Positions 37,498 to 44,118 are shown, numbered from the stretch's first letter. The stretch: 64,000 bases of DNA from Candidatus Tayloriibacteriota bacterium (GCA_016215405.1 JACRJQ010000007.1:143-64142); one strand, 5' to 3'. Made by a program: numbers and translations. Notes: generated by a model not told the origin, from the sequence alone.

Positions 37498-37513
37498 CTT
37501 GATTTTGTCTTAT

Positions 37514-38047
37514 CTAATTTGCTTCAGGCAGACCTAATTTATTTAAGGGGATTGTATTGAAAAAATAATCACAACCGTTTTCGCGTATATAGGCAAGAAC
37601 ATCCTTATATGAAGGATGTGAAAACCAATCATTCAAAATATAGTAATACTCAACCTTTGCACCTAGATCTCTGACCAACTTCATGTACTGAGCCCTCTTA
37701 AAAGCTGATGTTTGGAGCTTTTCATCAACAGATCCAGAAACTTTCTGAAACTTCATTTCAATTATATGCAACGTGTTAGTTGCAAATACATATACCGCAT
37801 CGTCAGGCAATAGTTTCTTTGAAATGATTTCCTCGTGGTTAATCCCTTTTGCCTTAAGAAATTTGTACAAGGCACTTTTTCTGAGATGCATTGCGAGTGG
37901 TGTTCCGTTAAAGGAAATCGTGCCATCTTTTGCAATGCTATAACCCTTTACCTGCCCAAGGACAGCAAGAAAATCTGCCTTCTTCTCAAAGTGAAGGCCT
38001 GTAACGGTATTCGCACCTCCCTTGCCGCCAGTTTTCATGATCCACAT
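37514..38047 (-). CDS. putative PD-(D/E)xK nuclease (candidate restriction endonuclease), AT-rich foreign gene
   Basis: The 177-aa product has …LLPDDAVYVFATNTLHIIEMKFQK… (PD…ExK spacing). It is divergent from the Dam-like MTase gene and has low GC. Confidence 0.45.
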   Translation of the reverse strand: MWIMKTGGKGGANTVTGLHFEKKADFLAVLGQVKGYSIAKDGTISFNGTPLAMHLRKSALYKFLKAKGINHEEIISKKLLPDDAVYVFATNTLHIIEMKFQKVSGSVDEKLQTSAFKRAQYMKLVRDLGAKVEYYYILNDWFSHPSYKDVLAYIRENGCDYFFNTIPLNKLGLPEAN

Positions 38048-38091
38048 TCAATCATGAAAGTTCCAATCCGACAAAGGGAAATAATCATACA

Positions 38092-38961
38092 ATGGTGATA
38101 AAATCACCCCACATGGAATCTGCAAAACCAGCACGGGCGCGACCTTTCGTTAAATGGGCCGGAGGAAAGGGGCAACTTTTGAAACAATTACATCCGCTTT
38201 TTCCTAAAAAATTTTCCACTTATTATGAACCCTTCCTTGGGGGTGGCGCTGTCTTCTTCAGCCTGTCTCCTAAAAAGGCGATTATAAATGATATCAACGT
38301 CACTCTTGCAAATACATATAGACAAATAAGAAGCGATGTCGATTCACTGATTGAGGAACTTAAAAAAATAGAGAAAAAATTCCTCTCAGCGGGTGAAGAT
38401 GGGAGGAGAGAATTCTACTACAAGATACGTGACAGATATAATTCTCTACCTCCTGAAGATCTAAAACGTTGCTCTCTGTTCATATTTCTAAATCGAACAG
38501 GATTCAATGGAATGTATCGAGAGAATTCAAGCGGAAAAATGAATATACCCTTTGGTCGCAACAAAAACCCAAAGATATTAAATGAAGAAAATCTCAGGGC
38601 AATCGCTGAAACTTTACATGACATTGAAATTTCTTCAAATCCGTTTGAAAAAGCGGTGTCTAGGGCAAAAAAGGATGATTTCGTTTATTTTGACCCTCCC
38701 TACGACCCAATCTCTTCTACCTCCAGTTTTACTGCCTATACAGGAAGCAGCTTCGCTCAAGAAGACCAAATCAGACTCAGAGACTTGTTCGTGAAACTCG
38801 ACAAGAAGGGTGTATTCGTGATGCTCAGTAACTCAAGCACACCATTTATAAAAAATCTTTACAAAAACTATCGGCAAGTAAAAGTTCGTGCATCGAGAAT
38901 GATAAATTCCAAAACAGCCGATAGGGGTGAAATAGATGAGCTCGTTGTCCTAAATTACTGA
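38092..38961 (+). CDS. Dam-like (alpha-class, D12) N6-adenine DNA methyltransferase
   Basis: It has FVKWAGGK, EPFLGGGAV (motif I) and FVYFDPPY (motif IV). Its AT-rich codon usage is unlike the host. Confidence 0.9.
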   Translation: MVIKSPHMESAKPARARPFVKWAGGKGQLLKQLHPLFPKKFSTYYEPFLGGGAVFFSLSPKKAIINDINVTLANTYRQIRSDVDSLIEELKKIEKKFLSAGEDGRREFYYKIRDRYNSLPPEDLKRCSLFIFLNRTGFNGMYRENSSGKMNIPFGRNKNPKILNEENLRAIAETLHDIEISSNPFEKAVSRAKKDDFVYFDPPYDPISSTSSFTAYTGSSFAQEDQIRLRDLFVKLDKKGVFVMLSNSSTPFIKNLYKNYRQVKVRASRMINSKTADRGEIDELVVLNY

Positions 38962-39788
38962 GACACCAAATCAGAGAATCGTTTTATAGACAAGTCCAAG
39001 TATTCTTTAGTTTTATCAATACCTATATATTTTCTTCCTTGCATTATCGCAGCAATACCCGTTGTTGAACTGCCGGTAAAAGGATCAAGAACCACGTCCC
39101 CCTCTTTTGTACTTGCAAGAATGATTCTCTTTAAAAGCTCAAGTGGTTTTTGAGTTGGATGTTTGCCAAATTTCTTCTCGGAAGATTTTGACGTGCCAAC
39201 AGACCAAACCGATCTCATTTGCAGACCCGGCTTTTTGAGACCATCTTCGGGCCAATTCCCCTCCTTCATAAGTTCATAATTGAAAGTGTGTTTCGCCTTC
39301 TTCTCTTTTCTTACCCAAATAAGAGTCTCGTGACTTGCTGTAAAAAAACGACAACTCAGATTTGGGGCAGCATTGGGCTTGAACCACGAGATATCATTTA
39401 GGATGTGGTATCCCAAAACCTGTATTGCATGGCCGCATTGGTATATCGAATGATAGGTACCACTTACCCATAAAGTACCATGTGGTTTGAGCACACGTTT
39501 ACAGGCCTCCAACCATCTGTAATGAAAATTATAGTCGGCGTTAAAGCCGCCACTTTTATCCCAATCCCCCTTGTTTACACTCACCATCCGACCCGCATGC
39601 ACAGTAAATCCATCATTTGAAAGATTATAAGGAGGATCGGCGAAAATCATGTCCACCGAATTTTCAGGAAGTTCATTAAGCAACGAGATCGAATCGTCAT
39701 GAAACAACACAAAATTCCGGTCTGAAAAATATGGCTTCTTCTTCACCGATGAGAGAACCTTCTTTTTTGAAGCAAGTGTTTTCATCAC
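38955..39788 (-). CDS. beta-class N6-adenine DNA methyltransferase, DpnA/M.MboIC-like (probably G6mATC)
   Basis: It has IFADPPYNLSN, GDWDK, NPAPNLSCR and KHPTQKP…IILASTKEGD…LDPFTGSSTTG motifs. Confidence 0.88.
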   Translation of the reverse strand: MMKTLASKKKVLSSVKKKPYFSDRNFVLFHDDSISLLNELPENSVDMIFADPPYNLSNDGFTVHAGRMVSVNKGDWDKSGGFNADYNFHYRWLEACKRVLKPHGTLWVSGTYHSIYQCGHAIQVLGYHILNDISWFKPNAAPNLSCRFFTASHETLIWVRKEKKAKHTFNYELMKEGNWPEDGLKKPGLQMRSVWSVGTSKSSEKKFGKHPTQKPLELLKRIILASTKEGDVVLDPFTGSSTTGIAAIMQGRKYIGIDKTKEYLDLSIKRFSDLVSQ

Positions 39789-39848
39789 TGAAATTATAGC
39801 AACTCTCGATCTCTTGTGTTATTCACAAATTTATCTTTTTTTTATCTT

Positions 39849-41552
39849 TTAAATCTTCGTCAACGTGTATATCTCCCCTGCTATATCGCGACCTCTCTGT
39901 TCGATTGCAAGTCGCCAATCAATGTTGAATATATCCTTGTACTTTGATTCAATTTCCTTATTAAACTTAAAATGAGAATTTTTATACACTTCTGTACACT
40001 TCTTTTCTAAAGGCCAATCACTAGCATTTTGGTTATCATCCGGGTGTAGTAAGGTGAGATTTCCAATCAAATGAACATAATCTTTTATCTCTGATTTCCT
40101 TAAATTCCACTTTTTTGGGTCTTGGGGCAGGATATGTTCAATTGAAGTTTTTTTGAATGTGATTTTTCCTCCATCTTTTGCCTCAATAACTTTCTTAAAA
40201 AGAAATTCAGTTAGCTTTGAGTCTGATGTATAAGAAAGATCTGAAACGAAACAATCAATGAAACTTTCTCTGTCCTTCGTTAGGTTCTTCAAGGTATCGA
40301 TAAAATCTTTTGATTTATTTTTTACATCGCAACCGGGAGTTTCTCGAACTATCCTGCAGTAATTCGCGAAATGTTTTTCATACACAGAAGGACTAAGTAT
40401 CGAAAATTTAGCCCGCAAGCAAAAATTCCACAGTAAATTTACTATGTCCCTGAATTGGCCCGGTTTAAATTCCTTGTCTTTCTTGTGTTTTATATAGAGC
40501 GCGACCAAAATCTCATAGACTTGTTGATTATCAATTATTTGGTAGTCCACAAGCGCATCTCTAACCGTAGTATCTAATCCGTCAAAATAATGACTGAATT
40601 GCTTGCTGAAAATAGCGAGATAAAATTTTGAATAATCTCGCAATTGTTGGCAGTAAGCGACTAAATCACCTTTGTTTCTATTTTTTTGGATTTCTTTTTT
40701 TAAGCTTTCATAAAGATCCTTTACAGAAACATATTTATTTTCAGCAATCCATACATGACGTAAAAACTTAGTTATCAAATCTGGTGCCACCTTTTCAAAG
40801 TCGAGCTCCATTTCATCCCAAATTTGCTCGACATCATCTAAACAACCAAGCTTCTCAGCATGACCAAAAAGCTGGTTCTTGATTTGATCTGAGACAGATA
40901 GACCGAGGCCTTTTGAGTTTAATCCCTCGAATGCGTCGAACACCTCTTTTTCCGAATCAAGAATTATTGCCACAACCTGAAGTTCTAAGACTTTGTCTAT
41001 TAGTTCATGCAATTTTTCCAGATCATCACCAATTTTTCCGGTTATTAACTCCTTTAATATTTTGTATGCTCGAATATAAACAAGTTGAGCCTTATCATAT
41101 TTGACTAGTTTTTCATTGTAACGCCCATCAATGAGATCAGTGAAAACCTGATAATACGTATTCTTACGTGGCTTTAGGACATAATAATCACCTCGAGTTC
41201 TCTTGTCCTTATCTTTAAGAAAATCATCAATCCAAGTGACTTTATCGTGATCTTTTTCAGGAAGAATTTCCTTCGCTCTATCACGAAGCGCGATTAACAT
41301 GAGACAGATGGTGGTGAGTCTTTGCTGACCATCAATAATTATCAATCTATTCTCATTGTCTCCATTACCTAAAACACAAACGATATTTCCGATAAAGTAG
41401 GATTTATCATTTGATTCTGTGGCGAAGAAAAAATCAGTCAATTGCTTAGACCCCCACTTATAAGCTCTCTGAAAATTAGGTACACCAAATTTTTTATATA
41501 CATCAACTAAAGTTGCAAAACTGTATTCATTAATGTCATGAAATCTTTTCAT
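39849..41552 (-). CDS. GmrSD-family type IV restriction endonuclease-like protein (DUF262 plus DUF1524/HNH)
   Basis: The N-terminus has NFQRAYKW…IIDGQQRLTT (DUF262, ParB/Srx-like). The C-terminus has …SIEHILPQ…HLIGNLTLL (DUF1524, His-Me finger). Confidence 0.85.
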   Translation of the reverse strand: MKRFHDINEYSFATLVDVYKKFGVPNFQRAYKWGSKQLTDFFFATESNDKSYFIGNIVCVLGNGDNENRLIIIDGQQRLTTICLMLIALRDRAKEILPEKDHDKVTWIDDFLKDKDKRTRGDYYVLKPRKNTYYQVFTDLIDGRYNEKLVKYDKAQLVYIRAYKILKELITGKIGDDLEKLHELIDKVLELQVVAIILDSEKEVFDAFEGLNSKGLGLSVSDQIKNQLFGHAEKLGCLDDVEQIWDEMELDFEKVAPDLITKFLRHVWIAENKYVSVKDLYESLKKEIQKNRNKGDLVAYCQQLRDYSKFYLAIFSKQFSHYFDGLDTTVRDALVDYQIIDNQQVYEILVALYIKHKKDKEFKPGQFRDIVNLLWNFCLRAKFSILSPSVYEKHFANYCRIVRETPGCDVKNKSKDFIDTLKNLTKDRESFIDCFVSDLSYTSDSKLTEFLFKKVIEAKDGGKITFKKTSIEHILPQDPKKWNLRKSEIKDYVHLIGNLTLLHPDDNQNASDWPLEKKCTEVYKNSHFKFNKEIESKYKDIFNIDWRLAIEQRGRDIAGEIYTLTKI

Positions 41553-41620
41553 TTGTACGATTTAGGAGTGCTTTCTAATACCTGTATTATATCGATTTCA
41601 GGATAAACAAAACATAAAAT

Positions 41621-41648
41621 AAACACCCCAACCGCTTGAGGTGTTTGG
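41621..41648 (-). terminator. palindromic terminator-like element downstream of the PspC gene
   Basis: aacaccccaaccgcttgaggtgtt is followed on the minus strand by a U-rich tract. It is a near copy of the element at 53259-53284. Confidence 0.5.
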
Positions 41649-41954: not shown

Positions 41955-42566
41955 TCAGCGCGAAGAGACGAACGCCGGAAGAGCGTTGATCGGGAGACCG
42001 GTCCTCGCATCGACCGTCTCGCCCTCGTCGTTGACCGCGAAGAAGCGGCCATAGACCGTGGCATACGAGAGCAGAGTCTCGAGCTCTTCCGGCGTCTCGA
42101 CGTCGTCGGCGAGCCGGTAAGGGCGGGAGTCCACGTAGACGATCACGCGGAACATCCCGGAGGAGGCGCGGATATCGGTCTCGGCGACCATCTCCAGAGG
42201 GACGTTCGTCTGAAAGCCGTGGAAGAATTTGTCCTCCCAGCGCAGGGGGTTCTTCGGGTCGTTGCGCGACCCGGTCCGGCGAGCGTTATAGACCTCGTTG
42301 AGGCGGTTGCGGAAGGTATCGATGCCTCCGCAGCGCTCCCCGTTGGGGTGCTGGGTGACCCAGACTTCCGCGAGCTCGCCGTCCTTGTCTTCGGAGCAGA
42401 CGAAGGTGGCGGCGATGCGGGCGATCTTCGGGTTCGTGGTGAGGCATTCGACCTTTACGGCCGAAGCGGTGAAGTCGTGCTTTCTCGACCTGACGAGGAA
42501 CAGTATCTTGTCGGCGGGCATATCGGGATATGGTTGAGGGTGGGACGTTGCAGGGCTCGATACCAC
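41955..42566 (-). CDS. hypothetical protein
   Basis: It is a 203-aa ORF; an alternative start at 42521 (MPADKILF…) is possible. Confidence 0.45.
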   Translation of the reverse strand: MVSSPATSHPQPYPDMPADKILFLVRSRKHDFTASAVKVECLTTNPKIARIAATFVCSEDKDGELAEVWVTQHPNGERCGGIDTFRNRLNEVYNARRTGSRNDPKNPLRWEDKFFHGFQTNVPLEMVAETDIRASSGMFRVIVYVDSRPYRLADDVETPEELETLLSYATVYGRFFAVNDEGETVDARTGLPINALPAFVSSR

Positions 42567-42589
42567 GTTACGCCACAGGGCCTTTTTGT

Positions 42590-42628
42590 CAATAAAAACG
42601 CGGCTGGCCCTGGTGAGGGACAGCCGCG
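42590..42628 (-). terminator. intrinsic terminator, a paralogous copy of the one at 41899
   Basis: gcggctgtccc…gggccagccgc is followed by UUUUUAU. It is about 80% identical to the 41899 element over roughly 55 nt. Confidence 0.55.
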
Positions 42629-42647
42629 ACGGAAACAGGCGCGAGGC

Positions 42648-43001
42648 CTAGCGATCGCTCGATACGAGCGTGGGCGAAGCGGGCTTTTCAACCACGAATG
42701 CGGTCTCGGAGATCTCCGAGAAGCGGCCGTAGAACGACTCGCGCCATTCGCCGTCGCCCGGGGCGCGAGAGGCGTGAAAGACGAGGGTCCGGTCGTCCTC
42801 GCCCTCCTTTGGCAGATTAGGACGATCCCCCACGACCTCGTGGACCGAGACGTGAGTGAGGGCGGAGAGCCGGTCCCTTATGAGGTTTTTGGCCTCGACG
42901 CGGGCGAGCCGGGGATCGGAGGTGTCGAGATTGATCCGGACGAAACATCCCTTCAAAGGGACGGCGCTTACAGACGCTACCACATAGCGATTGTTGTGCA
43001 T
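42648..43001 (-). CDS. hypothetical 117-aa protein
   Basis: It is an ORF with a terminator immediately downstream. Confidence 0.4.
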   Translation of the reverse strand: MHNNRYVVASVSAVPLKGCFVRINLDTSDPRLARVEAKNLIRDRLSALTHVSVHEVVGDRPNLPKEGEDDRTLVFHASRAPGDGEWRESFYGRFSEISETAFVVEKPASPTLVSSDR

Positions 43002-43074
43002 GGATTTAGAAGGCAGGTTCAGAGTTGCAGGCTACCGCACCAAGCTACCCCATCCGAGCGGATTGTCAAAGAGG

Positions 43075-44118
43075 CTATTCGAGGGGCAAGAACCCCAAGA
43101 GGCGCAGGAGGAACGCCGTCGGGAAATCATACCATTTGAAGAAAAACCCCTCGTTCTTGGGGTCGTAGGGCCGCGCTTCCCTTTTCCACTTCTCGACGAT
43201 CGTCCGGAGCTCTCCTACCATGGCGGACTCGTGAAAAAAGACACCTGCCTCCATGTTCATGTTAAAGGAGAACATGTCGAGGTTCTGCGAGCCGATCATC
43301 CCCTCGCGATCGTCGACGAGCATCGCCTTTGCGTGATTCATCCCCCGCAGGAAATAGCAGGAGGCGCCCATATGGACGAAAGACGAGGCAAAGGAGCGGT
43401 TCACGCCGTTTACGAAAGCGTGGTCGGTCGCCTCGGGCATGATGATGTCGACCCTCACGCCGCGCAGTATCGCCTGGTGGATACGCGCCAAAAGCCAGCG
43501 CGGCGGGAAAAGATAGGGCGTGACGAGGACGATGGACGACTGAGCCTTGTCTATCCTCTGGGAATAGTAGTTTCTGAATTCATGGCGCCTCTTGCCGAGC
43601 CCGTGATCGACGAACCAGAGCTGCGCTCGGCGCAAAGGCCCCGCCTTCGTGTTCTTTTGGAGTATCTCGCCTTTGCCCCCGCAGTCGCGGTACGCGCGGC
43701 TAAACGACCTGATGATCGCTTCGACGACATGCCCCGTGACGCGGACCTGCAGGTCGCGCCAGCGCGCGTACCTCTTGCCTACGTTTACTCCGCCGACGAA
43801 CGCCTCCTTTTCGTCTATGACGAGGACCTTTCGATGCATGCGCTGGAAGAAGAAGCTGCAAAAGAGGACCTCCGCGCCAGCCTCGCGCAGCGCCCCTATC
43901 GCCCCGTCGAGCGGATTGAAGCTCCCCACGACGTCGAGGATGACGACCACTCTCACCCCTCTTTTCGCGGCCCGGGAAAGGGACTCCAAGAATTCGCGAC
44001 CCTTCTCGTCGCCCCCGACGATATACATCTGAAGGTATGCCGATGCGGTAGCCCTCTCTATGGCCGCTATCATGCCCTCCCAGGCCTTCTCTGATGTCGT
44101 AAAGATACGGTGATCCAT
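43075..44118 (-). CDS. phospholipase D family protein (cardiolipin synthase-like, two HKD motifs)
   Basis: It has HRKVLVID and HAKAMLVDD HxKx4D motifs. Confidence 0.8.
   Translation of the reverse strand: MDHRIFTTSEKAWEGMIAAIERATASAYLQMYIVGGDEKGREFLESLSRAAKRGVRVVVILDVVGSFNPLDGAIGALREAGAEVLFCSFFFQRMHRKVLVIDEKEAFVGGVNVGKRYARWRDLQVRVTGHVVEAIIRSFSRAYRDCGGKGEILQKNTKAGPLRRAQLWFVDHGLGKRRHEFRNYYSQRIDKAQSSIVLVTPYLFPPRWLLARIHQAILRGVRVDIIMPEATDHAFVNGVNRSFASSFVHMGASCYFLRGMNHAKAMLVDDREGMIGSQNLDMFSFNMNMEAGVFFHESAMVGELRTIVEKWKREARPYDPKNEGFFFKWYDFPTAFLLRLLGFLPLE

What the first reader, a model, noticed from the sequence alone, without database searches (positions are those of the whole stretch)
38955..41552. 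GmrSD-like (DUF262-DUF1524) nuclease transcribed in the same direction immediately upstream of a beta-class adenine MTase
The genes at 39849-41552 and 38955-39788 are co-directional with only a 60-nt gap, which suggests one transcript. GmrSD-family enzymes normally attack modified DNA (BrxU, SspE, Eco94GmrSD). Co-expression with an MTase implies one of two things. The nuclease may ignore m6A-GATC and add a modification-dependent layer against hypermodified phages. Or the MTase may protect against this specific nuclease, which would be a new R-M logic. The convergent 7-nt 3-prime overlap with the Dam-like gene is also unusual.
Basis: partly seen in the sequence, partly recalled or inferred. Interest (0 to 1): 0.65.

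Follow-up and report, generated by a model that had tools for sequence, protein, structure and literature searches.

The report
GmrSD nuclease inside GATC restriction cassette
A GmrSD-family nuclease gene sits inside a horizontally acquired four-gene GATC restriction-modification cassette (two methylases plus a small, previously unnoticed restriction enzyme), and every relative down to 30% identity whose surroundings I examined sits in such a cassette, so the nuclease probably depends on GATC methylation, although that dependence is inferred and not shown.

Summary
In detail: a DUF262-DUF1524 (GmrSD-family) gene at 39849-41552(-) lies 60 nt upstream of a co-directional beta-class adenine methylase at 38955-39788(-), which overlaps a convergent Dam-like gene by 7 nt. 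The pair is only half of the unit. A sharp low-GC island (about 37500-41620) holds four genes. These are the GmrSD-like nuclease, a DpnA-like methylase, a DpnM-like methylase, and an overlooked 177-aa PD-(D/E)XK protein (37514-38047, -) that is the methylase's usual restriction partner. This is a DpnII/LlaDCHI-type GATC restriction-modification system with a non-orthologous nuclease and an embedded GmrSD gene. All 19 unique loci examined with a GmrSD at least 30% identical carry GATC-type methylases plus a restriction enzyme, against 1 of 79 distant relatives. The restriction enzyme comes from at least five families, and no partner protein is universal. The nearest characterised relatives are HEC-06, which is modification-dependent, and DndI, which senses the host's own mark. 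I favour a second nuclease referenced to the GATC-m6A mark (about 0.4) over an independent Type IV add-on (about 0.35). This is a new variant of a known kind.

The parts
37500..41620 (.). Horizontally acquired low-GC island holding the whole four-gene cassette
   Evidence: GC is 0.31-0.46 inside and about 0.55-0.65 outside, with sharp transitions at about 37500 and about 41600. The flanking genes are housekeeping: TruB and DUF1697 on one side, PspC, PLD, ABC-F and a DEAD helicase on the other. No boundary repeats were found.
39849..41552 (-). GmrSD-family (DUF262-DUF1524) NTPase-nuclease, HEC-06/DndI-like, 567 aa
   Evidence: PF03235 plus PF07510. PADLOC HEC-06 7.8e-77 and Orf5 1.2e-59, both near full length. 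DGQQR and EH..N..N are invariant. AF2 model pLDDT 88.5. Best solved match is DndI 9jfl, TM 0.72, E 7e-15. Profile against PDB: DndI 2.1e-36, SspE 4.5e-17, BrxU 3e-6.
41319..41333 (-). DGQQR nucleotide-hydrolysis motif (D74-R78) of the DUF262 domain
   Evidence: Invariant in 27 homologues. Q/R mutations of this motif abolish defence in HEC-06 and mark discrimination in DndI.
40134..40139 (-). E472-H473 of the His-Me (HNH-like) nuclease motif IEHILPQ
   Evidence: Invariant. The equivalent E471A and H472A mutations abolish HEC-06 defence.
41586..41591 (-). Perfect TATAAT box 33 nt upstream of the GmrSD ATG (candidate promoter -10)
   Evidence: Read directly from the sequence. The -35 region is poor, so the scan did not list it. 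This is an inference only.
41621..41646 (-). Terminator-like hairpin plus T-run after the PspC gene, insulating the island from upstream transcription
   Evidence: Eleven-pair stem followed by ATTTTATGTT.
39793..39822 (-). Promoter-like site inside the 60-nt GmrSD-methylase gap (ATAACA, 18 nt, TGcTATAAT), with a GATC at 39808 in its spacer
   Evidence: Best-scoring site of the scanned region at 10 of 12, and the only one with a TG extension. The total number of sites is not above shuffles. GATC position.
38955..39788 (-). Beta-class N6-adenine methylase, DpnA/M.LlaDCHIB-like ('TypeA'), 277 aa (276 from the ATG at 39785)
   Evidence: PF01555 2.5e-62. It is 54% identical over 256 aa to the second methylase of the LlaDCHI GATC system on pSRQ700. 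CcrM 6pbd scores 1.8e-60. It is 78-82% identical to methylases paired with R177 homologues.
38092..38961 (+). Alpha-class Dam-family methylase, DpnM-like, 289 aa
   Evidence: TIGR00571 1.4e-89. Best solved relative is DpnM 2dpm, 6.2e-73, full length. It is 47% identical to M.LlaDCHIA.
37514..38047 (-). R177: small PD-(D/E)XK nuclease, the predicted Type II restriction enzyme of the cassette (probable start at 38038, 174 aa)
   Evidence: Conserved P81-D82...E97-x-K99 plus GSVDEK. Weak PF20472 hit. The family has more than 1400 members and no annotation. It normally overlaps a TypeA methylase gene in M-R pairs. AF2 pLDDT 87.9. Nearest folds are PD-(D/E)XK nucleases including BstEII, MunI and SgrAI, with weak E-values from 3e-3.

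Best explanation
SHOWN. The window carries a 4.1-kb horizontally acquired DpnII/LlaDCHI-type restriction-modification cassette. It has a DpnM-like methylase and a DpnA-like methylase. A small PD-(D/E)XK nuclease (R177) stands in place of R.DpnII. A GmrSD-family NTPase-nuclease is embedded in the cassette. GATC specificity of the methylases and of R177 is inferred from homology and gene context. This embedding is the rule for the whole GmrSD clade examined (30-60% identity), while the restriction enzyme, the second methylase and the gene order keep changing.

INFERRED mechanism, to which I commit. The GmrSD-like protein is a second restriction arm that is referenced to the same GATC-m6A mark as the Type II enzyme. 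This is the logic shown for its closest solved relative, DndI, with phosphorothioate. The protein would load on DNA and hydrolyse NTP through the DGQQR domain. When it meets the host mark it would be released or kept inactive. On DNA lacking the mark it would nick or cleave with the His-Me domain. The two methylases would then protect the chromosome from two mechanistically unrelated nucleases. A phage inhibitor of, or escape from, one nuclease would not defeat the other.
For: (1) All 19 unique loci examined whose GmrSD is at least 30% identical to the window's carry Dam-like and/or DpnA-like or TypeB methylases plus a nuclease next to it. The comparison is 1 of 79 distant GmrSD loci in genomes (Fisher p = 2e-19) and 4 of 71 in metagenomes.

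(2) No protein partner is universal. The restriction slot holds R177, DpnII (PF04556), MutH/Sau3AI-like, DUF6996/6997, or the 211-aa or 446-aa proteins. Some cassettes have D12 plus TypeB, others have only TypeA, and one has a fused methylase. The only shared property is the inferred GATC specificity.

(3) These cassette types are interleaved on the GmrSD tree. The gene therefore moved at least three times between non-homologous architectures and always landed in a GATC system.

(4) GATC specificity is supported in several ways. The Dam-like protein's best solved relative is DpnM. TypeA is 54% identical to M.LlaDCHIB. TypeA pairs with MutH/Sau3AI-like and DpnII enzymes. R177 pairs with D12 alone in L082 and L087. 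Homologues of TypeA and R177 lie, both disrupted, directly after the GmeATC-specific drg gene in N. gonorrhoeae.

(5) The closest solved relative by profile (2.1e-36, full length) and by fold (TM 0.72) is DndI. DndI senses the host mark, is toxic without it, and shares an operon and a mark with a second restriction module, DndFGH.

(6) Catalytic motifs are intact and invariant.
Against: The strongest profile match is HEC-06 (7.8e-77). HEC-06 defends E. coli on its own. A Bacteroides homologue of HEC-06 restricts T-even phages but not unmodified T4-GT7, which is classical modification-dependent Type IV behaviour.

Every cassette already contains a conventional restriction enzyme, and no methylase-plus-GmrSD-only unit was seen.

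No m6A-reading element has been identified in the protein.

Only about 19 of roughly 57 clade members could be examined, and nearly all come from CPR bacteria, where GATC systems may simply be common.

GATC is not depleted in the host window (O/E 0.95), which is uninformative.

Nothing here is biochemical.
Confidence: 0.4

Rival explanations
1. Independent Type IV add-on, of the BrxU or HEC-06 type. The nuclease ignores m6A-GATC and cuts phage DNA carrying hypermodified bases that escape GATC restriction. It is embedded only for co-transfer and co-regulation, giving complementary layers (unmodified DNA goes to R177, hypermodified DNA to GmrSD).
For: The best profile hits are HEC-06 models at near full length. 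HEC-06 acts alone and blocks T4, and HEC-06Bact is modification-dependent. GmrSD-like genes are known to be embedded in BREX, Hma, DISARM and Type I systems with complementary function. A conventional restriction enzyme is present in every cassette.
Against: Complementarity would hold for any restriction-modification system. Yet this clade was never seen outside GATC-type cassettes, despite repeated partner swapping and at least three moves between non-homologous architectures. BrxU is a much weaker relative (3e-6) than DndI (2e-36).
Confidence: 0.35
2. Product-coupled helper. The nuclease acts on DNA already cut at GATC. All the known partner enzymes leave 5'-GATC ends. It would degrade or nick the fragments so they cannot be repaired, and it would be harmless without the restriction enzyme.
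For: It explains a tie to GATC systems without a universal protein partner, and it explains why a restriction enzyme is always present.
Against: There is no precedent in the GmrSD family, where the characterised members act autonomously. The cleavage position of R177 and of the other new nucleases is unknown.
Confidence: 0.08
3. No functional link. The GmrSD gene is a passenger that has hitch-hiked in a family of mobile GATC cassettes common in CPR bacteria.
For: The island is clearly mobile DNA. Sampling is limited and CPR-biased. In the window itself the gene order is rearranged and the methylase seems to have its own promoter.
Against: The gene is retained with intact catalytic motifs over 30-60% divergence and across non-homologous cassette architectures, with 2-20 nt gene spacing. 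The contrast with distant relatives has p = 2e-19.
Confidence: 0.1

Closest known systems
DpnII (S. pneumoniae) and LlaDCHI (L. lactis pSRQ700) GATC restriction-modification systems
   Same: They have two methylases of different classes, an alpha DpnM-like one and a beta DpnA-like one. The window proteins match them closely: 2dpm at 6e-73, and 47% and 54% identity to M.LlaDCHIA and M.LlaDCHIB. They also have one restriction enzyme. Several relatives of the window cassette carry a true DpnII-family enzyme.
   Different: The window's restriction enzyme is an unrelated 177-aa PD-(D/E)XK protein. One methylase gene is inverted. A GmrSD-family nuclease is embedded, which DpnII and LlaDCHI lack.
DndI (ORF5) of the IscS-DndBCDE-DndFGHI phosphorothioate system
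   Same: It is the closest solved relative (TM 0.72, profile E 2e-36, full length). It has the DUF262 DGQQR NTPase plus the DUF1524 nuclease. It shares an operon with host DNA-modification genes and with a second restriction module that uses the same mark.
   Different: The mark in the window would be m6A in GATC, not phosphorothioate. No dnd or ssp genes are present. Sensing of the mark is untested here.
HEC-06 (PADLOC) and HEC-06Bact
   Same: They give the best profile match (257 bits, residues 20-537), have the same length, and have the same DGQQR and EH motifs that were shown to be essential. HEC-06 was discovered because it is embedded in a modification-based system.
   Different: HEC-06 is embedded in Hma systems and works alone as a modification-dependent enzyme. 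The window clade was found only in GATC Type II cassettes.
BrxU in the pEFER BREX island
   Same: It is a GmrSD-family gene embedded in a methylation-based defence operon, and it gives complementary protection.
   Different: It is only a distant relative (3e-6). BrxU-like genes occur in several kinds of host system, whereas this clade does not.
PrrC in the EcoprrI Type I locus
   Same: It is an accessory nuclease found almost exclusively embedded in one kind of restriction-modification system.
   Different: PrrC is an anticodon nuclease held by protein contacts with its host system. Here no protein partner is conserved.
LlaJI (McrBC-like enzyme with two methylases)
   Same: It is a precedent for a 'Type IV' nuclease family being used in methylation-protected mode.
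   Different: It belongs to a different protein family, and LlaJI has no additional classical restriction enzyme.

Membership tests
GmrSD family (DUF262-DUF1524) | N-terminal DUF262/ParB-like domain with the DGQQR motif | tested here: met
   PF03235 at 1.3e-31. D74-R78 are invariant.
GmrSD family (DUF262-DUF1524) | C-terminal DUF1524 His-Me finger with (D/E)H...N...N | tested here: met
   PF07510 at 9.4e-18. E472, H473, N498 and N507 are invariant.
GmrSD family (DUF262-DUF1524) | Full-length fold like solved members | tested here: met
   AF2 pLDDT 88.5. DndI TM 0.72, then SspE.
GmrSD family as Type IV enzymes | NTP-stimulated cleavage that requires modified (hmC or glc-hmC) DNA | not testable with these tools
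   This needs biochemistry or phage assays.
HEC-06 (PADLOC) | Match to the HEC-06 profile over the full length | tested here: met
   PDLC04157 at 7.8e-77, residues 20-537 against profile positions 21-532 of 558.
HEC-06 (PADLOC) | Autonomous defence without partner genes | not testable with these tools
   Shown only for the E. coli-tested representatives.
DndI/SspE-type mark-sensing nucleases | Genetic linkage to dnd or ssp phosphorothioation genes | tested here: not met
   The island holds only two methylases and R177, and the flanks are housekeeping genes. The window gene is therefore not a member of this system, only an analogue.
DndI/SspE-type mark-sensing nucleases | Operon linkage to the host's own DNA-modification genes | tested here: met
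   Found in 19 of 19 clade loci, with gaps of 2-60 nt to a methylase gene.
DndI/SspE-type mark-sensing nucleases | NTPase stimulated by the host mark; hydrophobic Tyr pocket | not tested
   From a motif comparison by eye, the window has P25-N26-F27-Q28 where DndI has P23-x-Y25-Q26. No structural alignment of the pocket was made.
DpnII-type two-methylase GATC system | Alpha-class DpnM-like methylase | tested here: met
   2dpm at 6.2e-73, full length. TIGR00571 at 1.4e-89.
DpnII-type two-methylase GATC system | Beta-class DpnA-like methylase | tested here: met
   54% identical to M.LlaDCHIB, above the CcrM-type hits at about 47%.
DpnII-type two-methylase GATC system | DpnII-family restriction enzyme (PF04556) | tested here: not met
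   The window enzyme R177 has no PF04556 match. PF04556 enzymes do occupy the same slot in L088, L002, L103, L108, L109 and L187.
DpnII-type two-methylase GATC system | GATC specificity of methylation and cleavage | not testable with these tools
   Only indirect support is available: homology, partner enzymes, and the disrupted copies next to drg in Neisseria.
Type II restriction endonuclease (R177) | PD-(D/E)XK catalytic motif and fold | tested here: met
   P81, D82, E97 and K99 are invariant or nearly so in 25-30 homologues. The nearest folds are PD-(D/E)XK nucleases, with weak E-values.
Type II restriction endonuclease (R177) | Gene paired with a cognate methylase | tested here: met
   It forms overlapping M-R pairs in L091-L102.

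The most novel reading that the evidence does not exclude
This GmrSD clade would be the first GmrSD-family nuclease that reads a base methylation (m6A in GATC) as the 'self' mark. It would be a methylation counterpart of the phosphorothioate sensors DndI and SspE. One pair of methylases would then license two unrelated nucleases, a site-specific Type II enzyme and an NTP-driven GmrSD-type enzyme. The restriction slot of the cassette would be freely exchangeable because only the mark matters.
Probability: 0.35. Interest if true: 0.8.

Novelty: new variant of a known kind. Interest (0 to 1): 0.55.

Why it matters
GmrSD-family enzymes are usually filed as Type IV, modification-dependent enzymes. 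Their embedding in Type I, BREX and Hma systems is read as simple layering. Here a whole clade was found only in one epigenetic specificity (inferred GATC), while every protein partner varies. That is the pattern expected if the nuclease reads the mark itself.

If confirmed, it would extend mark-sensing by DUF262-DUF1524 proteins from phosphorothioate to ordinary adenine methylation. It would also explain how small-genome CPR bacteria, which rely heavily on restriction-modification, harden a single methylation mark with two nucleases.

Independently of that, the work assigns a function to a large unannotated protein family. R177 has more than 1400 members and is a probable GATC restriction enzyme. 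The work also suggests the same role for DUF6996/6997/DUF7226 proteins and for two further small families.

Tried and rejected
- The metagenome scan with the single protein found no relative.
- The genome scan with the full-length alignment was swamped by the generic DGQQR pattern and returned mostly relatives at or below 30% identity. These were useful only as background.
- The 176-aa ORF after the GmrSD gene in L085 is not an R177 homologue (17% identity) and was dropped.
- An alignment of the regions upstream of TypeA methylase genes showed no conserved promoter.
- No direct or inverted repeats mark the island ends, and no tRNA or integrase is nearby.
- GATC and GANTC are not depleted in the host window (O/E 0.95 and 0.93), so site avoidance says nothing about specificity.
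- I considered that the beta methylase is GANTC-specific (CcrM/HinfI-like). I rejected this as less likely because its best characterised relative is the GATC enzyme M.LlaDCHIB and its partners are MutH/Sau3AI-like and DpnII enzymes.
- The clade is absent from viral contigs.
- The Foldseek match of R177 is only weakly significant.
- A sequence search of R177 against PDB found nothing.
Full report
**1. Observation**

- The 567-aa product of 39849-41552(-) matches GmrSD_N (PF03235, 1.3e-31) and GmrSD_C (PF07510, 9.4e-18). Its DGQQR motif (D74-R78) and His-Me residues (E472, H473, N498, N507) are invariant in an alignment of 27 homologues.
- The 277-aa product of 38955-39788(-) is a PF01555 methylase (2.5e-62). 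DPPY comes before the AdoMet-binding FTGSSTT motif, which is the beta-class order.
- The gap is 60 nt, or 63 nt from the ATG that gene callers use.
- The Dam-like gene at 38092-38961(+) converges on the methylase with a 7-nt overlap of the two stop-codon regions.

**2.

Composition shows a sharp low-GC island (31-46% GC) from about 37500 to about 41600 in a genome of about 57% GC. The island holds exactly four genes. The fourth is a 177-aa ORF at 37514-38047(-), here called R177. The flanking genes are housekeeping: TruB, DUF1697, PspC, a PLD enzyme, ABC-F and helicases. An exact copy of the GmrSD protein is recorded from a Candidatus Taylorbacteria (CPR) genome.

**3. R177 is the restriction enzyme and the beta methylase is its partner**

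- R177 belongs to a family with more than 1400 members. The best 120 listed are 54-65% identical, and the family has no Pfam or name annotation.
- It carries an invariant P-D...E-x-K signature.
- Its model is confident (pLDDT 87.9). The nearest solved folds are PD-(D/E)XK nucleases, including the restriction enzymes BstEII, MunI and SgrAI, although the E-values are weak (from 3e-3).
- In other CPR genomes the family occurs as the second gene of overlapping two-gene units. The first gene of those units is a methylase 78-82% identical to the window's.

**4. The cassette is DpnII/LlaDCHI-like and very probably GATC-specific**

- The Dam-like protein's best solved relative is DpnM (2dpm, 6.2e-73, full length). 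It is 47% identical to M.LlaDCHIA.
- The beta methylase ('TypeA') is 54% identical to M.LlaDCHIB, the DpnA homologue of the GATC system on pSRQ700. That is higher than its identity to CcrM-type enzymes.
- TypeA methylases elsewhere pair with MutH/Sau3AI-like and DpnII-family nucleases. R177 elsewhere is protected only by a D12 methylase plus a second methylase type.
- In N. gonorrhoeae, homologues of TypeA (split in two) and of R177 (truncated) lie directly after drg, the DpnI-like enzyme that cuts GmeATC. The literature calls the neighbouring gene 'DPNIIB-like'. Decay of both genes is what GATC specificity predicts in a drg-carrying strain.

**5. The embedding is a clade-wide rule**

I examined the surroundings of GmrSD homologues by exact-protein look-ups, a genome scan and a metagenome scan. 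I then classified the neighbouring genes with tblastn and blastp.

- All 19 unique loci examined whose GmrSD is 30-60% identical to the window's have GATC-type methylases and a nuclease beside it. Where all neighbours are visible the genes are, with two exceptions, co-directional: 16 of 18 loci are entirely so, the exceptions being the window and L108.
- Gaps between adjacent co-directional genes run from -53 to +148 nt and are mostly 20 nt or less.
- Only 1 of 79 more distant GmrSD loci in genomes does so, and that one weakly (Fisher p = 2e-19). In metagenomes the figure is 4 of 71.
- The nuclease slot holds R177, DpnII (PF04556), MutH/Sau3AI-like, DUF6996/6997/DUF7226, a 211-aa PD..EVK protein or a 446-aa protein.
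- The methylases are D12 plus 'TypeB', TypeA alone, D12 plus TypeA (the window), or a fused enzyme. TypeB is a family of about 250 aa with motif I before motif IV.
- The GmrSD gene may be first, internal or last in the cassette.
- On a neighbour-joining tree of the GmrSD proteins these architectures are interleaved. This implies at least three moves between cassettes that share no homologous partner gene.
- The clade is absent from viral contigs.

**6. Co-transcription in the window**

- A terminator-like hairpin (41646-41621) follows the upstream PspC gene.
- A perfect TATAAT lies 33 nt before the GmrSD start.
- No terminator-like site lies in the GmrSD-methylase gap.
- The best promoter-like site of the 5.8-kb region does lie in that gap: ATAACA-18-TGcTATAAT, with a GATC in its spacer.

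Read-through plus a methylase promoter of its own is the most economical reading. It cannot be tested here. The inverted Dam gene and the 7-nt overlap are peculiar to this locus.

**7. Known relatives and what they do**

- *Profile matches.* The best matches are PADLOC HEC-06 (7.8e-77) and 'Orf5' (1.2e-59). I take Orf5 to be ORF5 of the Salmonella dpt cluster, now called dndI; this link is an inference.
- *HEC-06.* It was found embedded in Hma systems and defends E. coli alone. It needs its DGQQR and EH motifs. HEC-06 was reported to block T4. A Bacteroides homologue restricts T-even phages but not unmodified T4-GT7.
- *Solved structures.* The clade profile hits DndI at 2.1e-36 over the full length, SspE at 4.5e-17 (N-terminal part only) and BrxU at 3e-6. 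The AF2 model (pLDDT 88.5) superposes best on DndI (TM 0.72).
- *DndI.* It senses the host phosphorothioate mark, which stimulates its ATPase and releases it from self DNA. It is toxic without the mark. It shares an operon with a second restriction module, DndFGH, that uses the same mark.
- *Earlier surveys.* They reported GmrSD genes embedded in Type I (RloF), BREX, Hma and DISARM systems. In the papers I read they did not report embedding in Type II GATC systems.

**8. Interpretation**

Two readings fit the protein.

- *Independent Type IV add-on.* This is favoured by the HEC-06 match and by the presence of a conventional restriction enzyme in every cassette.
- *Nuclease referenced to the GATC-m6A mark.* This is favoured by the exclusive association with one specificity while all partner proteins change. 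Simple layering does not predict that pattern. It is also favoured by DndI being the closest solved relative, with a direct precedent of two nucleases sharing one mark.

I put the mark-coupled reading at about 0.40 and the independent Type IV reading at about 0.35. A product-coupled helper gets about 0.08 and mere hitch-hiking about 0.10.

Caveats:

- About a third of the clade was inspected.
- Almost all members come from CPR bacteria.
- The specificity assignments are indirect.
- No biochemical evidence exists.

**9. Verdict**

It is a four-gene, mobile, DpnII-type cassette with a new small restriction enzyme and an embedded GmrSD-family nuclease, and this architecture is conserved across a clade. 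It is a new variant of a known kind, namely defence genes embedded in modification-based systems. It offers a clear, cheap experimental test using dam-plus and dam-minus hosts and modified versus unmodified phage.

Noticed in passing
window 37514-38047 (-); L091-L102; L190 4001-4456: R177 is a large family (more than 1400 proteins) of unannotated 173-177-aa PD-(D/E)XK proteins, with the listed members 54-65% identical. It is mostly found in CPR bacteria, with members labelled Rickettsiaceae and Altiarchaeales. It is almost certainly a new Type II restriction enzyme family, probably specific for GATC.
   Followed up: partly
L190 2197-4456 (N. gonorrhoeae, leuS/drg locus): Directly after drg (DpnI-like, PF06044) lie a TypeA/DpnA-like methylase split into 125-aa and 92-aa ORFs and a truncated (151-aa) R177 homologue. 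The locus looks like a decayed Dam-DpnA-R177 cassette into which drg was inserted. The record is a 2.17-Mb chromosome filed as a plasmid in PLSDB.
   Followed up: partly
L084 5933-7231; L106 7963-8598; L110 3934-5274: The restriction-enzyme slot of related cassettes is filled by a DUF6996/DUF6997/DUF7226 protein, by a 211-aa protein with a PD..EVK motif, and by a 446-aa protein with no family match. Their position predicts that all three are GATC restriction enzymes.
   Followed up: partly
L088 10574-11344 and homologues (L002, L082-L087, L105-L110): The second methylase of most related cassettes ('TypeB', about 250 aa, 72-84% identical among the D12–TypeB cassettes closest to L088 (55–60% in L109/L110, 47% in the fused L187 enzyme)) hits PF01555 in two pieces. 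Motif I (GGGTT) comes before motif IV (THPPY), so it looks like a circular permutation of the beta-class order seen in the window's methylase.
   Followed up: no
window 39808 and 38039: One GATC lies in the spacer of the promoter-like site upstream of the methylase gene. Another abuts the probable start codon of R177. Expression of the cassette could be sensitive to its own methylation.
   Followed up: no
window 41955-43139: Two long ORFs overlap on opposite strands in the high-GC region next to the island: 203 aa on the minus strand and 306 aa on the plus strand. The minus-strand one has no Pfam, NCBIfam or PADLOC match, and the plus-strand one shows no Pfam hit in the gene list of L001. Which of them is a real gene is unclear.
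   Followed up: no
window 1-64000: CTAG (O/E 0.42) and GTAC (O/E 0.64) are clearly under-represented in the host sequence, whereas GATC is not (0.95). GTAC avoidance might reflect another restriction system in this genome.
   Followed up: no
L187 2495-3226 and 7998-8864; L087 695-1792 and 6140-7204: Related cassettes sit in mobile or defence contexts. One is between a TIR-domain (CAP12-PCTIR) gene and a Y1 transposase. Another is between two Fic-domain genes.
   Followed up: no
L083 2434-3158: In one close relative the TypeB methylase gene appears broken (151-aa and 87-aa fragments) while R177 and GmrSD are intact. The second methylase may therefore be dispensable when the Dam-like one is present.
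   Followed up: no
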